Shown here: one piece after another, positions 21,608-23,788 of the stretch | Layout of the letters: each line of letters opens with the position of its first letter | Numbering within the stretch: the first letter of the stretch is position 1 | Notes under the pieces: generated by a model | Database searches by the model: none | The model's input: the letters and a program-made list of their open reading frames with translations, nothing else | Told to the model about the DNA's origin: nothing | Made by a program: the position numbers and the translations under genes | Assembly (NCBI GenBank): GCA_001780725.1 | Contig: MFIM01000005.1 | Span: forward strand, 2,127-66,126 | Source of the DNA: Candidatus Giovannonibacteria bacterium RIFCSPLOWO2_02_FULL_45_28 | Lineage (GTDB): Bacteria > Patescibacteriota > Minisyncoccia > UBA11713 > 2-01-FULL-45-33 | Length of the DNA: 64,000 nucleotides | Direction: 5' to 3'

Positions 21608-23788
21608 TTATTTTTCCACAAAAACTTTTTCGCCGTTTTTAATGGCAGTGGTAATGATGCCCGCGATTTCCGGGCGCATAAACCACGTCGGCGGCAATTC
21701 GCCTTTTTCAAATGTCTTGCGGGCCTCCGTGCCGCTTATGGATAATTTGTCCGCCTGGTCGTGATTAGGGCTCTCTTTCGCGTGTATATGCTTATCCAAG
21801 CTTTTTGAATAAAAAACTTCGTCAAATTTTACCGCTTTTATCCCGATATCCGGAAATTTATCAAAAATATCATGTGAAGCATTCGGGTGATAAAATTTTC
21901 CCACCCCGGTATGGTCGCGCCCGACGATAAAATGGCTGCAGCCGAAATTTTTTCTGCAAATCGCCGTGAACAACGCTTCGCGGGGGCCGGCGTAACGTGA
22001 ATAAGTATTGAATGTCGCGAACACAACTTTATGTTTTGGATAAATCCCGTTCATCATCCTTTCATAACTTTTAATTATATATGAAGCGTTGTAATCGCCC
22101 GGCTTCTTTTTACCGACCACCGGATGCACGAATAATCCGTCGCAGTGTTCCCGCTCCATGGCGGCAAGCTGTATGTATTCATGGCTTCTGTGAATAACAT
22201 TTCTGGTGTGAAAACCCACAACTCTTGACCAATGCCTTTCCGCAAAAATTTTTCTTACTTGGCGCGGGGTTAGCGCGTAAGCGGAATTTTCGGCCGGCCT
22301 TCTTTTTAGGAGAGTTATTTTGCCCCCCAAAAGAACCGGCTTCATATCCATAACCATCTGCACGCCGGGATGATCCGGACTATTTGTGCCGTACATTTTT
22401 GAAATGAATTCCGATTTGTCCAAACTGAATTTTTCTTCCAAATGCAAAATAGCCAGTGCCCCGCCGCTGCTATCAATCAGCGCTATGTCGTCCCCTTCCC
22501 GAACTTTGTTTGCCTCCTCCTCGGAAACGTCCAGTACGACCGGCAAAGGCCATGGAACGCCGCTTTCAAGGCGCATATTATCTAAAACGCCCCGCAGGTC
22601 CTTTTTCCCCATAAATCCCTCCAACGGGCTGAATACGCCAATCGCTATCTGCTCGGCATCCATCGCGGCATTTTCAGTAATTTTCAGTTTTTTAAGCGAA
22701 TTAACATACACCCCATCCGGCGTTTTGCCAACCGCCCTACTGATCAGTTTCCCGCCATGCGGAGCTATTAAAGCCCCGCCTCCGCCTTCGGAGCAGGCGC
22801 GCGAAATTAAAGCATTAAGCATATTGATACATTCAATAGGATATTTTCCTATGGCGGTTTCGGCGGCCAACACCAGCCCGTAAGCGCCCCCCCAAACACT
22901 GTTTACGACGTCGTGGACTTCCGCGCGCGTAGGCTGTTTCTTTTCTACCATTGTTTCCAAAAGATTCGTGGCCACAAAAACTCCCTTACCGGATTTTTTC
23001 GCTTTTTTGATTATATCTCTCTGCAAAAACGGGATCTCTTCCAACGGCACCTCTTTGCTTAAATCTCCCCGGTCTATAAATAAAAAATCAGATTTGGAAA
23101 TTATGTCGTCAAGATTATCCAGCCCGTCTTGGCATTCAATTTTTGAAATTATTTTCATCCGGCCTTTTGTGGTTCTTCTTACTTCGTCAACGAATTCTCC
23201 CGACCGCATAAATGAGGCAGCGATGTATCCGACGTTTTCTTTGAGACCCAATTCTATGGATTTATAATCCTTTGGCGAAAGGGGCGGCAAATTGTAAAAT
23301 CTGCCCAACGCAGAACTTACGGCCACGGCTTTGTTGCTTCCTAAAAAACCCGGGGAAATAACATCGGCAGTAATATAACCTTTGGATATTGTTGAGGTGT
23401 CTTTGACACGCAAGGCTAGAGCGTCAAAATCCATATAAAGAATATCTCCCTCCTCAAGCTGTGAAATTATTTCTTTGGGGCGGAGAAAAATTTTTTCTTT
23501 ATCGCCCGGCGGCGCATCTCCGCCGTCCCCGCCGAGGCGGACTTCGTCATTTTCATCAAAATAAATCGTTCCCCCTTTTAAATTACCGTTTCTTATCTGT
23601 GATCCTTCAGTGTCAATTATAAATTCAAGGCCATTTTTTTTGGCCAAGCCGACAAAATATTCCAAATCCTCTATTCCGGAGTGCGACATGTTGACTCTCA
23701 CAAAATCCACTCCTCTGTCTTTTATTTTCCTTAAACTTTCCTCGGTTCGCGTTGCCGGCCCGAGAGTTACAATGGTTTTCACTTTCAT
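21608..23788 (-). CDS. fusion protein: N-terminal pyruvate-kinase A/B (barrel) domains + C-terminal ATP sulfurylase (sulfate adenylyltransferase)
   Basis: One uninterrupted 726 aa ORF. The N-terminal ~350 aa show MKVKTIVTLGPATRTEE, VRVNMSHSG, KIISKIECQDGLDNLDDII, FIDRGDL, ATNLLETM and PTRAEVHDVVNSV...LAAETAIGKYP, matching the PK catalytic domain with its K/E/D catalytic residues and no C-terminal allosteric domain. The C-terminal ~380 aa show PHGGKL, VVGFHTRNVIHRSHEYI (QTRN/HRAH region) and VGRDHTGVG (GRDHAG), matching ATP sulfurylase. The start was chosen at MKVKTIV (ATG 23788..23786). Confidence 0.75.
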   Translation of the reverse strand: MKVKTIVTLGPATRTEESLRKIKDRGVDFVRVNMSHSGIEDLEYFVGLAKKNGLEFIIDTEGSQIRNGNLKGGTIYFDENDEVRLGGDGGDAPPGDKEKIFLRPKEIISQLEEGDILYMDFDALALRVKDTSTISKGYITADVISPGFLGSNKAVAVSSALGRFYNLPPLSPKDYKSIELGLKENVGYIAASFMRSGEFVDEVRRTTKGRMKIISKIECQDGLDNLDDIISKSDFLFIDRGDLSKEVPLEEIPFLQRDIIKKAKKSGKGVFVATNLLETMVEKKQPTRAEVHDVVNSVWGGAYGLVLAAETAIGKYPIECINMLNALISRACSEGGGGALIAPHGGKLISRAVGKTPDGVYVNSLKKLKITENAAMDAEQIAIGVFSPLEGFMGKKDLRGVLDNMRLESGVPWPLPVVLDVSEEEANKVREGDDIALIDSSGGALAILHLEEKFSLDKSEFISKMYGTNSPDHPGVQMVMDMKPVLLGGKITLLKRRPAENSAYALTPRQVRKIFAERHWSRVVGFHTRNVIHRSHEYIQLAAMEREHCDGLFVHPVVGKKKPGDYNASYIIKSYERMMNGIYPKHKVVFATFNTYSRYAGPREALFTAICRKNFGCSHFIVGRDHTGVGKFYHPNASHDIFDKFPDIGIKAVKFDEVFYSKSLDKHIHAKESPNHDQADKLSISGTEARKTFEKGELPPTWFMRPEIAGIITTAIKNGEKVFVEK

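What the first reader, a model, noticed from the sequence alone, without database searches (positions are those of the whole stretch)
21608..23788. Single ORF fusing a pyruvate-kinase catalytic domain to ATP sulfurylase
The sequence shows a continuous 726-codon frame. The N-terminal ~350 aa carry the hallmark PK A/B-domain blocks (KTIVTLGPA, RVNMSHS, KIISKIE.QDG, DRGDL, ATNLLETM, PTRAEVHDV, AAETAIGKYP), with the catalytic Arg/Asn/Lys/Glu/Asp conserved and no C-terminal allosteric domain. The C-terminal ~380 aa carry the ATP sulfurylase blocks (PHGGKL; VGFHTRNVIHRSHEY; VGRDHTGVG). I do not recognise this architecture from described Sat enzymes, whose known fusions are to APS kinase, CysN-type GTPases or PUA-like domains. 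I infer that a PEP-driven phosphotransferase tethered to the thermodynamically unfavourable sulfurylase could regenerate ATP (from the ADP released by the adjacent CysC) and pull flux toward PAPS. This would be an ATP-sparing solution in a small-genome organism.
Basis: partly seen in the sequence, partly recalled or inferred. Interest (0 to 1): 0.85.

Follow-up and report, generated by a model that had tools for sequence, protein, structure and literature searches.

The report
Pyruvate-kinase domain fused to ATP sulfurylase
One real gene joins a truncated but catalytically intact-looking pyruvate kinase to the enzyme that activates sulfate; this widespread, apparently unstudied fusion probably uses PEP to recycle ADP to ATP while the cell makes the sulfate donor PAPS for a sulfated surface sugar.

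Summary
Window 21608-23788 (minus strand) is one uninterrupted 726-codon gene. It encodes a PK A/B barrel, a 10-residue Gly-rich linker, a PUA-like domain and an ATP-sulfurylase domain. It is followed by translationally coupled CysC and a sulfotransferase, at the head of a large glycan operon.

It is not a chimera. More than 120 clusters at 90% identity, and at least 56 full-length representatives at 50% identity, share the architecture. Hosts span CPR bacteria, DPANN archaea, Acidobacteriota, Planctomycetota, Verrucomicrobiota, Gammaproteobacteria and cultured rhizobia (Mesorhizobium amorphae, Ensifer adhaerens).

The PK core catalytic residues are invariant across the family. The PK domains form their own clade (99/100 bootstraps) with diagnostic second-shell changes. 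The same parts also occur as a split operon, as PK–Sat–CysC triple fusions, and as barrel-only PK beside sulfotransferases.

Best explanation (inferred, about 0.6): PEP-driven removal of ADP and local regeneration of ATP for PAPS synthesis. This mirrors the PK/PEP module needed for PAPS synthesis in vitro.

I found no paper or solved structure describing the fusion. I rate it a new variant of a known kind, of moderate-to-good interest, and directly testable in cultured rhizobia.

The parts
21608..23788 (-). PK–Sat fusion gene: 726 codons plus stop. An alternative upstream ATG at 23809 would give 733 aa.
   Evidence: ORF list; single terminal stop; Pfam and NCBIfam hits; identical GenBank protein P0001.
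22826..23785 (-). Pyruvate-kinase A/B barrel domain (aa 2-321 of the 726-aa form). The B 'cap' subdomain is roughly aa 67-170 (23279-23590). There is no C-terminal allosteric domain.
   Evidence: PF00224 full-length match, 230.9 bits. PDB PK chains at E = 1e-46 to 1e-54. Foldseek gives rmsd 2.5-3.3 Å to PKM2 over about 345 columns. Catalytic R31, N33, S35, D59, R66, K153, K216, E218, D242, T274 and E310 are present.
22769..22798 (-). Short Gly-rich interdomain linker (aa 331-340, RACSEGGGGA) between the last barrel helix and the Sat N-terminus (PHGGKL at aa 343).
   Evidence: Sequence. Model pLDDT dips to about 70 only in this block. The spacing between the last conserved PK motif (ETAxGxxP) and the Sat PHGG motif, which also includes the last barrel helix, is 24-54 residues across the family.
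22301..22768 (-). PUA-like N-terminal domain of ATP sulfurylase (aa 341-496).
   Evidence: PF14306, E = 2.2e-48.
21650..22282 (-). ATP-sulfurylase catalytic domain (aa 503-713). Carries FHTRNVIHRSH (an H-for-Q variant of the QTRNxxHxxH motif) and VGRDHTGVG.
   Evidence: PF01747, E = 3.8e-77. NF003166 scores 426.6 against a cut-off of 387, and TIGR00339 scores 361.2 against 322.95. Closest structure is 8a8d, M. thermolithotrophicus ATPS, E = 1.4e-96, TM 0.94.
21042..21596 (-). APS kinase (CysC), 11 bp downstream of the fusion's stop codon.
   Evidence: PF01583, E = 3e-50; TIGR00455 scores 179.6 against a cut-off of 138.7. Junction sequence.
20081..21052 (-). Sulfotransferase, overlapping the end of CysC by 11 nt. 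The presumed consumer of PAPS.
   Evidence: PF00685, E = 2.1e-9; coordinates.
4605..20088 (-). Co-directional, mostly overlapping downstream genes of the same glycan operon. They include a CMP-sugar cytidylyltransferase, a methyltransferase, NeuB, a UDP-GlcNAc 2-epimerase, GNAT-type proteins, DegT aminotransferases, PseB-like dehydratases, an ABC exporter and a KpsC/S-like capsule protein.
   Evidence: Pfam scans; ORF coordinates.

Best explanation
The gene encodes a sulfate-activating enzyme with a built-in ATP-regenerating module.

Proposed reaction scheme:
- The C-terminal half is a normal ATP sulfurylase: ATP + sulfate -> APS + PPi.
- The adjacent CysC, which is fused in about one in six close relatives, converts APS + ATP -> PAPS + ADP.
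- The N-terminal half is a pyruvate kinase stripped of its allosteric C-domain. It uses PEP to convert that ADP back to ATP on the spot.
- The net reaction is sulfate + ATP + PEP -> PAPS + PPi + pyruvate.

Removing ADP would prevent the dead-end APS-kinase·ADP·APS complex and keep local ATP/ADP high. That would pull the unfavourable sulfurylase step towards PAPS, which the downstream sulfotransferase uses to sulfate a nonulosonic-acid-containing surface glycan.

Shown here: the architecture, conservation of the catalytic residues, the gene linkage, the distribution, and a confident two-module model.
Inferred: that the donor is PEP, that the acceptor is ADP, and that the benefit is relief of ADP inhibition and local ATP supply.
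For: 1. Both halves are full-length, high-scoring domains in one frame.
2. Across 56 full-length fused representatives, whose PK halves are only 31-62% identical to this one, the PK phosphoryl-transfer residues are invariant or nearly so. These are R72, N74, S76, D112, R119, K269, E271, D295 and E363 (rabbit numbering), plus K206 (K/R) and T327 (T/S). They are the same as in 120 canonical PKs. The trans-acting Arg of the A-A interface (R288 here) is kept in 55/56 (its role is described in PMC3467265).
3. Linkage to the ADP producer:
   - CysC lies 11 bp downstream here.
   - It is adjacent or fused in 10 of 19 related loci.
   - It is fused as PK-PUA-Sat-CysC in 19 of the 120 closest clusters.
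4. Rosetta-stone evidence:
   - The same parts occur as separate adjacent genes, Phosphodiest / barrel-only PK / Sat / CysC, in L133.
   - A complete canonical-type PK (barrel + PK_C) is fused to the same Sat clade in P0135, with CysC coupled.
   - Barrel-only PKs of this clade sit next to sulfotransferases in L009 and on viral contig L101.
5. Neighbouring genes are consistently sulfotransferases and glycan genes. One locus has a CysQ-like phosphatase.
6. Experimental precedent: human PAPSS1 makes almost no PAPS in vitro unless PK/PEP removes ADP, because of the dead-end enzyme·ADP·APS complex (PMC9885120).
7. The AlphaFold model has pLDDT 92.9 and pTM 0.88 for the whole 726 aa. This argues for a fixed mutual arrangement of the two modules.
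Against: - No enzymology exists for any member.
- The PK clade carries diagnostic departures near the active site that canonical PKs in my sample almost never show:
   - S361->A, against S in 120/120 canonical PKs.
   - PykF-D127->F, against D in 120/120.
   - E117->Q, against K or E.
   - A292->D, G297->S and Q328->N.
  Nucleotide, cation or donor specificity could therefore differ from a textbook PK.
- The protein falls below the NCBIfam pyruvate-kinase equivalog cut-off (273 against 306.4).
- In 9 of 19 loci no CysC was found within about 6 kb.
- Barrel-only PKs sit beside sulfotransferases without Sat. This shows the partner need not be Sat itself.
Confidence: 0.6

Rival explanations
1. 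The PK-like clade is a neofunctionalised phosphotransferase. It keeps PK chemistry but acts on a different donor or acceptor relevant to sulfation. Examples would be another nucleotide of the PAPS/PAP cycle, or altered cation dependence.
For: - The clade is separate from 120 canonical PKs in 99/100 bootstraps.
- Diagnostic replacements affect residues that are invariant in canonical PKs and line the gamma-phosphate/nucleotide side of the site: S361->A, PykF D127->F, E117->Q, K114->E, A292->D and Q328->N. The position of Ser362 is described in PMC3467265.
- Barrel-only members sit beside sulfotransferases without Sat or CysC nearby (L009; L101).
Against: - All residues that bind PEP, Mg2+, the monovalent cation and the nucleotide phosphates are retained.
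- An independently derived canonical-type complete PK is found fused to the same Sat clade in P0135. This suggests ordinary PK activity is what is selected.
- PK is naturally broad for NDPs. No chemically obvious alternative acceptor exists, since PAP and AMP are monophosphates.
Confidence: 0.17
2. The PK half is a non-catalytic regulatory or scaffolding domain. This would resemble the APS-kinase-like allosteric domain of fungal ATP sulfurylase. It would sense PEP or energy state, or merely drive oligomerisation.
For: - Precedent of degenerate enzyme domains fused to Sat in fungi (established knowledge; structures 1i2d and 1m8p appear).
- Loss of the PK C-domain and changes at some canonical invariants.
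Against: - Catalytic Lys, the Mg ligands, the cation-site residues and the phosphate-binding Arg/Lys are invariant over 56 representatives at about 35-45% identity. That pattern is expected for an active enzyme, not a ligand sensor.
- The mobile B-domain is retained.
Confidence: 0.1
3. It is simply the organism's housekeeping glycolytic pyruvate kinase that happens to be fused to Sat, with no functional coupling.
For: - No other PK was seen in the 64-kb window.
- CPR genomes are reduced.
Against: - The fusion always sits in sulfation/glycan clusters.
- It occurs in large genomes such as Ensifer, Mesorhizobium and Acidobacteriota. These are expected to have canonical PKs (established knowledge, not tested here).
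- CPR and DPANN lineages do possess canonical PK+PK_C proteins, for example Uhrbacteria P0388 and Woesearchaeota P0392.
- The fused PK forms its own clade and has lost allosteric control.
Confidence: 0.06
4. It is an assembly chimera, or an unrecognised frameshift or stop joins two ordinary genes.
For: None found.
Against: - The frame is continuous.
- The same junction is present in more than 120 clusters from independent assemblies, and in complete replicons of cultured Ensifer adhaerens and Sinorhizobium chiapasense.
Confidence: 0.01

Closest known systems
Bifunctional Sat–CysC PAPS synthases (Aquifex aeolicus 2gks; metazoan PAPSS1/2) and fungal Sat with an APS-kinase-like regulatory domain (1i2d, 1m8p)
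   Same: - A homo-oligomeric Sat-type ATP sulfurylase with a PUA-like N-domain.
- An accessory enzyme domain is tethered to favour flux to PAPS.
- Some relatives of this gene also carry CysC at the C-terminus, in the same Sat->CysC order.
   Different: - The accessory domain here is N-terminal, and it is a pyruvate kinase barrel, not a kinase acting on APS.
- In this window CysC is a separate gene. The NF004040 bifunctional model scores 284.6 against a cut-off of 669.
Stand-alone archaeal/bacterial Sat, closest solved: Methanothermococcus thermolithotrophicus ATPS (8a8d/8a8g) and Thermus thermophilus 1v47
   Same: - The Sat half is 41-42% identical to 8a8d/8a8g, with TM 0.93-0.94 and rmsd about 2 Å.
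- All the RNxxHxxH and GRDHxG motifs are present.
   Different: - An extra 330-residue PK module at the N-terminus.
- The first residue of the QTRN motif is His (FHTRN) in 177 of 178 PK-bearing sequences.
Canonical pyruvate kinases (E. coli PykF, PKM2, G. stearothermophilus PK)
   Same: - The same A/B-domain fold and an identical core catalytic constellation.
- The trans Arg of the A-A interface is retained.
   Different: - There is no C-domain, so none of the known allosteric sites.
- It forms a separate clade with diagnostic changes: E117Q, K114E, A292D, G297S, Q328N, S361A and PykF-D127F.
- It scores below the TIGR01064 cut-off.
In-vitro PAPS-generating cascades that add pyruvate kinase + PEP for ATP regeneration
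   Same: The same set of activities (Sat, APS kinase, PK) and the same proposed logic: removing ADP to avoid the dead-end APS-kinase·ADP·APS complex (PMC9885120).
   Different: That is an engineered mixture of separate enzymes. Here the combination is a natural covalent fusion or operon, and its activity is untested.
Eukaryotic algal APS kinase–ATP sulfurylase–pyrophosphatase fusions (recalled from the literature on sulfate-activation enzyme phylogeny; not checked here)
   Same: The concept of tethering a 'pull' enzyme to the thermodynamically unfavourable sulfurylase.
   Different: The pull there is PPi hydrolysis. Here it would be ADP removal and ATP supply. This rests on memory only and is a lead, not a test.

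Membership tests
ATP sulfurylase, Sat type (PF01747 + PF14306; TIGR00339 / NF003166) | Score above the curated family cut-offs over the full length | tested here: met
   NF003166 scores 426.6 against 387. TIGR00339 scores 361.2 against 322.95. Pfam E-values are 3.8e-77 and 2.2e-48.
ATP sulfurylase, Sat type | Catalytic motifs (Q/H)TRNxxHxxH and GRDHxG | tested here: met
   FHTRNVIHRSH at aa 526-536 and VGRDHTGVG at aa 622-630. The Gln->His variant is clade-wide.
ATP sulfurylase, Sat type | Catalyses ATP + sulfate -> APS + PPi | not testable with these tools
   Needs an enzyme assay.
Pyruvate kinase (PF00224; TIGR01064 equivalog) | A-domain TIM barrel with inserted B-domain cap | tested here: met
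   PF00224 covers 3-328 of 328 model positions. Foldseek hits to PKM2 and PykF. The model's secondary structure agrees.
Pyruvate kinase | Catalytic and metal-binding residues: R72, N74, S76, D112, T113, R119, K206, K269, E271, D295, T327, E363 (rabbit numbering) | tested here: met
   All are present in this protein, and invariant or conservatively varied in 56 fused representatives.
Pyruvate kinase | C-terminal alpha/beta (allosteric) domain PF02887 | tested here: not met
   There is no PK_C hit, and the Sat PUA domain begins about 10 residues after the barrel.
Pyruvate kinase | Score above the NCBIfam equivalog cut-off | tested here: not met
   TIGR01064 scores 273.0 against 306.4. NF004491 scores 277 against 432. 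This is partly a consequence of the missing C-domain.
Pyruvate kinase | Residues invariant in the canonical PKs sampled (S361; PykF D127) | tested here: not met
   Here they are Ala308 and Phe121. Canonical PKs have S in 120/120 and D in 120/120.
Pyruvate kinase | Catalyses PEP + ADP -> pyruvate + ATP | not testable with these tools
   Needs an LDH-coupled assay on recombinant protein.
Bifunctional Sat/APS kinase (NF004040) | Sat and APS-kinase domains in one polypeptide | tested here: not met
   CysC is a separate ORF at 21042-21596. NF004040 scores 284.6 against 669. Relatives such as P0003 and P0022 do meet this feature.

The most novel reading that the evidence does not exclude
The C-domain-less PK clade found here is a dedicated, previously unrecognised component of bacterial and archaeal sulfation systems. 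It appears fused to Sat, split from it, or alone beside sulfotransferases, including on a viral contig. Its remodelled nucleotide/gamma-phosphate pocket (S361A, D127F, E117Q, K114E, A292D, Q328N) may reflect a substrate other than plain ADP. In that reading PEP would power a closed recycling loop of the PAPS/PAP adenine-nucleotide pool, rather than simple ATP regeneration.
Probability: 0.12. Interest if true: 0.8.

Novelty: new variant of a known kind. Interest (0 to 1): 0.6.

Why it matters
Sulfate activation is thermodynamically uphill, and APS kinase is choked by its own product ADP. Known natural remedies are fusion to APS kinase, GTP hydrolysis (CysDN) or pyrophosphatase.

A natural covalent PK–Sat(–CysC) enzyme would be a fourth solution, one that couples PAPS synthesis directly to the glycolytic intermediate PEP. 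It is the same trick biochemists had to add to make PAPS in vitro.

The family is large and spans at least ten phyla, and databases variously label it "sulfate adenylyltransferase" or "pyruvate kinase". Consequences if the hypothesis holds:
- Metabolic reconstructions, especially of CPR and DPANN genomes where a PK hit is read as glycolysis, may be miscalling it.
- A self-regenerating PAPS synthase would be attractive for enzymatic sulfation of glycosaminoglycans.
- Members in cultured Ensifer and Mesorhizobium make the hypothesis immediately testable.

Tried and rejected
- **Chimera or frameshift.** Rejected by independent replication.
- **Literature.** Nine full-text searches were run. Five looked for the fusion itself and two for PAPS or sulfation in CPR bacteria, and none found a description of it. 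The other two were for the in-vitro precedent and for PK residue roles. The library covers open-access papers and bioRxiv only, so absence is not proof.
- **AFDB Foldseek.** The library was not available. The PDB search found no chain covering both halves; TM normalised to the query was at most 0.50.
- **Active-site geometry.** Model coordinates are not exposed, so whether the active sites face each other could not be tested.
- **Co-evolution of the two halves.** The correlation of pairwise identities was weak (r = 0.17). At 35-45% identity this is uninformative, so I draw nothing from it.
- **First NJ attempt with Biopython.** It timed out and was redone with a numpy implementation.
- **P0135 (complete PK + Sat).** It would show a second independent fusion, but it is a singleton on one 8-kb contig. 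No second example appeared in a dedicated search, so I treat it as supportive only.
- **Viral contigs.** None carries the fusion, only stand-alone Sat or barrel-only PK.
- **Rest of the window.** No canonical PK, CysQ, pyrophosphatase or sulfate transporter was found in the parts scanned. ORFs between about 53.2 and 64 kb were not scanned.
- **Another PK elsewhere in this Giovannonibacteria genome.** This could not be tested.
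Full report
**1. What is in the sequence**

On the minus strand, an ORF runs from 23809 (first ATG) or 23788 (the ATG used by GenBank, which fits homologue N-termini) to the stop at 21608-21610. It contains no internal stop.

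Pfam finds three domains in 733-aa numbering:
- PK barrel, aa 9-328, covering the whole 328-position model, E = 2.8e-68.
- PUA_2, aa 348-503, E = 2.2e-48.
- ATP-sulfurylase, aa 510-720, E = 3.8e-77.
- No PK_C.

NCBIfam places the C-terminal half above the curated Sat cut-offs: NF003166 scores 426.6 against 387, and TIGR00339 scores 361.2 against 322.95. The N-terminal half matches pyruvate-kinase models over positions about 2-335 only, and stays below their whole-protein cut-offs (TIGR01064: 273 against 306.4).

The barrel's last helix is joined to the Sat N-terminus (PHGGKL) by roughly ten residues, RACSE-GGGG-A.

The only corrections are that the gene is on the minus strand, and that the PUA-like domain is the ordinary N-domain of Sat and is present here.

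**2. It is not an artefact, and it is not rare**

The identical 726-aa protein is in GenBank as [quoted passage not shown]. The 120 best clusters, down to 57% identity and drawn from NCBI, JGI, ENA and Logan assemblies, all have PK+PUA_2+ATP-sulfurylase. Nineteen of them also have a C-terminal APS-kinase domain.

An exhaustive HMMER scan of 1.84 billion 50%-identity representatives gave at least 56 full-length fused representatives, down to about 33% identity. Of the 150 best hits, 108 carry this PK type; the shorter ones are mostly contig-truncated fragments.

In GTDB species genomes, full-length matches occur in the following:
- Gammaproteobacteria and Methylococcaceae
- Acidobacteriota (on a 5.7-Mb contig)
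- Rhodospirillales
- Pirellulales and Planctomycetaceae
- Verrucomicrobiota
- Longimicrobiales
- Omnitrophota
- Staskawiczbacteria (CPR)
- Woesearchaeota (DPANN)
- the cultured Mesorhizobium amorphae NBRC 102496

tblastn against PLSDB adds chromids of cultured Ensifer adhaerens and Sinorhizobium chiapasense.

So is the idea that this is a speciality of small genomes.

**3. Genomic setting**

In the window the fusion is the first gene of a long co-directional, mostly overlapping gene string:
- CysC, 11 bp downstream.
- A sulfotransferase, overlapping CysC.
- A CMP-sugar cytidylyltransferase and a methyltransferase.
- NeuB and a UDP-GlcNAc 2-epimerase.
- GNAT-type proteins, DegT aminotransferases and PseB-like dehydratases.
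- An ABC exporter and KpsC/S-like capsule proteins.

The rest of the window is likewise a glycan-modification island. The product of the module is therefore PAPS for sulfation of a nonulosonic-acid-containing surface glycan, not assimilatory sulfate reduction.

Relatives show the same logic. Sulfotransferases, glycan flippases/GTs and CysC (adjacent or fused) surround the fusion in an unclassified bacterium, Anaerolineae, Nanoarchaeota, Sungbacteria, Mesorhizobium and Ensifer. One locus adds a CysQ-like phosphatase directly downstream. With single-query phmmer, CysC was adjacent or fused in 10 of 19 loci.

**4. Is the PK half an enzyme?**

I aligned 56 full-length fused representatives. Their PK halves are 31-62% identical to this one. 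In rabbit-muscle numbering:
- R72, N74, D112, R119, K269, E271, D295 and E363 are 56/56.
- S76 is 55/56.
- K206 is K or R.
- T327 is T or S.

These are identical to the residues in 120 canonical PK+PK_C proteins collected as background.

The Arg that reaches across the A-A interface to stabilise the RGDLG helix of the neighbouring subunit is also conserved, in 55/56. Its mutation abolishes activity in Leishmania PK (PMC3467265). This hints that the A-A dimer is retained.

The pattern is what purifying selection on catalysis produces. It argues against a decayed or purely regulatory domain.

**5. But it is a distinct PK clade**

A neighbour-joining tree used 326 alignment columns, 181 PK domains and 100 bootstraps. 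In 99 replicates, 60 of 61 fused-type or barrel-only domains fall in one clade that excludes all 120 canonical PKs.

The clade has diagnostic substitutions close to the active site:

| Position | Fused clade | Canonical PKs |
|---|---|---|
| E117 | Q, 53/56 | K 109, E 11 |
| K114 | E, 49/56 | Q 92, K 13, P 10 |
| P116 | A or S, 51/56 | P 113/120 |
| A292 | D, 56/56 | A 108 |
| G297 | S, 51/56 | G 109/120 |
| Q328 | N, 53/56 | Q 107/120 |
| PykF A308 | G, 55/56 | A 117/120 |
| S361 | A, 46/56 | S 120/120 |
| PykF D127 | F, 51/56 | D 120/120 |

Ser362 (human numbering) lines the gamma-phosphate position (PMC3467265).

I read these as adaptation of a still-catalytic PK. The adaptations would include loss of allostery, an altered monovalent-cation shell and possibly altered nucleotide handling. 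They are the main reason I keep a neofunctionalisation rival at about 0.17.

**6. Rosetta-stone evidence for functional coupling**

- **(a) Triple fusions.** PK-PUA-Sat-CysC.
- **(b) A split operon in L133.** Phosphodiest / barrel-only PK (344 aa) / Sat (387 aa, 1-bp gap) / CysC (overlapping). This is the same order as the domains of the 1151-aa fusion P0151, which is Phosphodiest+PK+PUA_2+Sat.
- **(c) Barrel-only PKs beside sulfotransferases.** PKs carrying the clade signature sit immediately next to sulfotransferases in L009 and on a predicted viral contig, L101.
- **(d) P0135.** This 859-aa protein has a PK half that is complete (barrel + PK_C), carries the K+-independent-type signature, and groups with canonical PKs. 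It is fused to the same Sat clade, with CysC coupled downstream. It suggests a second, independent PK–Sat joining or a domain replacement. It is a singleton contig, however, and a dedicated search found no second example, so I use it only as supporting evidence.

**7. Structure**

An AlphaFold2 model built from a 39-sequence alignment has mean pLDDT 92.9 and pTM 0.88. Confidence drops to about 70 only at the linker. For a two-module 726-aa chain, such a pTM implies a defined inter-module packing rather than beads on a string.

Foldseek against the PDB matches each half separately:
- The Sat half matches 8a8d/8a8g and 1v47, with TM 0.93-0.94.
- The PK half matches PKM2 and PykF A/B domains, with rmsd 2.5-3.3 Å over about 345 columns.

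No chain covers both halves (TM normalised to the query is at most 0.50).

**8. Mechanism**

The chemistry of the neighbours fixes the stoichiometry. Sat consumes one ATP, giving APS + PPi. CysC consumes a second, giving PAPS + ADP. A PK acting on that ADP with PEP gives the net reaction sulfate + ATP + PEP -> PAPS + PPi + pyruvate.

The value of doing this locally is documented in vitro. With human PAPSS1, PAPS was "practically missing" and ADP accumulated unless a PK/PEP module was added. The reason is that APS kinase forms a dead-end enzyme·ADP·APS complex (PMC9885120).

I therefore propose that the fusion is nature's version of that cascade. This step is inferred, not shown.

It is not ATP-sparing in the energetic sense, because PEP is worth an ATP. 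It is a coupling device.

**9. Comparison with known systems and novelty**

The Sat half is an ordinary member of the Sat family, with a clade-wide Gln->His change in the QTRN motif.

The PK half works like a PK but fails three membership features: the C-domain, the equivalog cut-off and two canonical invariants. I file it as a PK-derived clade, not as a canonical pyruvate kinase.

Known Sat fusions involve APS kinase or APS-kinase-like domains. CysN-type GTPases belong to the unrelated CysD system, and pyrophosphatase fusions occur in some algae (this last point from memory). A PK partner is not among the described ones.

Five full-text searches for the fusion itself returned nothing, nor did two on PAPS or sulfation in CPR bacteria, and no solved structure has the architecture. 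Databases label members either "sulfate adenylyltransferase" or "pyruvate kinase".

Verdict:
- The feature is real, widespread and uncharacterised.
- It is a new variant of a known kind, namely a multidomain sulfate-activating enzyme.
- Interest is about 0.6.
- Its mechanistic idea is plausible and now better grounded.
- Its ecological framing (small genome, ATP-sparing, unusual rarity) is not supported.

Noticed in passing
window 22175-22219 (aa 524-538); family-wide: The Sat sulfate/nucleotide motif FQTRN is FH(T/S/G)RN in 177 of 178 PK-bearing sequences. It is also FH-type in a set of about 380-405-aa stand-alone Sats that look like the sister group. More distant stand-alone Sats in the same hit list keep FQTRN. 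The functional meaning is unknown.
   Followed up: partly
L021 8814-12466; L132 11826-15253; L002 10282-13276: A Na_H_Exchanger-family transporter and an uncharacterised NTP_transf_5 nucleotidyltransferase travel with PK–Sat in Mesorhizobium, Ensifer and an Anaerolineae MAG. CysC is also adjacent in the two rhizobial loci, which additionally carry a PqqD-like protein. This is a conserved module of unknown role; cation supply for the PK, or sulfate handling, are possibilities.
   Followed up: partly
P0151 (1151 aa); L133 3580-4968 and 7670-9094: A type I phosphodiesterase/nucleotide pyrophosphatase (PF01663) domain is fused N-terminally to PK–Sat in P0151. It is encoded immediately upstream of the split PK/Sat/CysC operon in L133, with a second copy downstream on the opposite strand. 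It could be a further 'pull' or PAP/PPi-clearing enzyme.
   Followed up: partly
L004 2391-3311 (Nanoarchaeota MAG); L006 5834-6109: An APS kinase is fused to a PQ-loop/MtN3-like membrane domain directly downstream of PK–Sat. A separate small PQ-loop protein lies in the Sungbacteria locus. This suggests a membrane-anchored step or nucleotide-sulfate transport.
   Followed up: no
L101 3842-5513 (IMG/VR contig, 10.8 kb): On a predicted viral contig, a sulfotransferase and an overlapping barrel-only PK of the sulfation-associated clade are flanked by 2OG-Fe(II) oxygenases. A second viral contig (L091, 4995-5969) has a barrel-only PK between an SMC-like ATPase and radical-SAM proteins, with no sulfotransferase detected.
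   Followed up: partly
L131 1046-3625 (P0135): A single 8-kb contig encodes a complete PK (barrel + PK_C, K+-independent-type signature L113/K117/I120) fused to PUA_2+Sat, with CysC overlapping downstream. Its PK half groups with canonical PKs. This points to a possible independent fusion or a domain swap, but it is unreplicated.
   Followed up: yes
L134 6001-9488: A stand-alone FHTRN-type Sat (405 aa) sits next to a sulfotransferase and lies convergent to a 724-aa PK–Sat fusion. That gives two Sat paralogues, one fused and one not, in the same locus.
   Followed up: no
P0009 (1019 aa): This variant has an N-terminal sugar-nucleotidyltransferase domain (NTP_transferase/NTP_transf_3) in front of PK–PUA_2–Sat.
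   Followed up: no
window 4605-20088, 23808-25313 and 26038-53231: Nearly the whole window of this CPR bacterium is a glycan island. It contains NeuB/NeuC/CMP-transferase (nonulosonic acid) genes, two KpsC/S-like Capsule_synth proteins (10188-11648 minus; about 23808-25313 plus), an ABC exporter, four DegT aminotransferases, a carbamoyltransferase (46164-47813), rhamnose-pathway-like genes and at least nine methyltransferases.
   Followed up: partly
window 33635-35389 (-), 35398-36399 (+), 36387-38174 (-): Three large adjacent ORFs (584, 333 and 595 aa) inside the glycan island have no Pfam match at E <= 1e-5.
   Followed up: no
window 23788-23810: The divergent KpsC/S-like gene's first plausible ATG (23808, plus strand) lies only 19 bp from the fusion's GenBank start (23788). 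It would overlap the alternative start at 23809. So either the promoters overlap or one of the two starts is further in.
   Followed up: no
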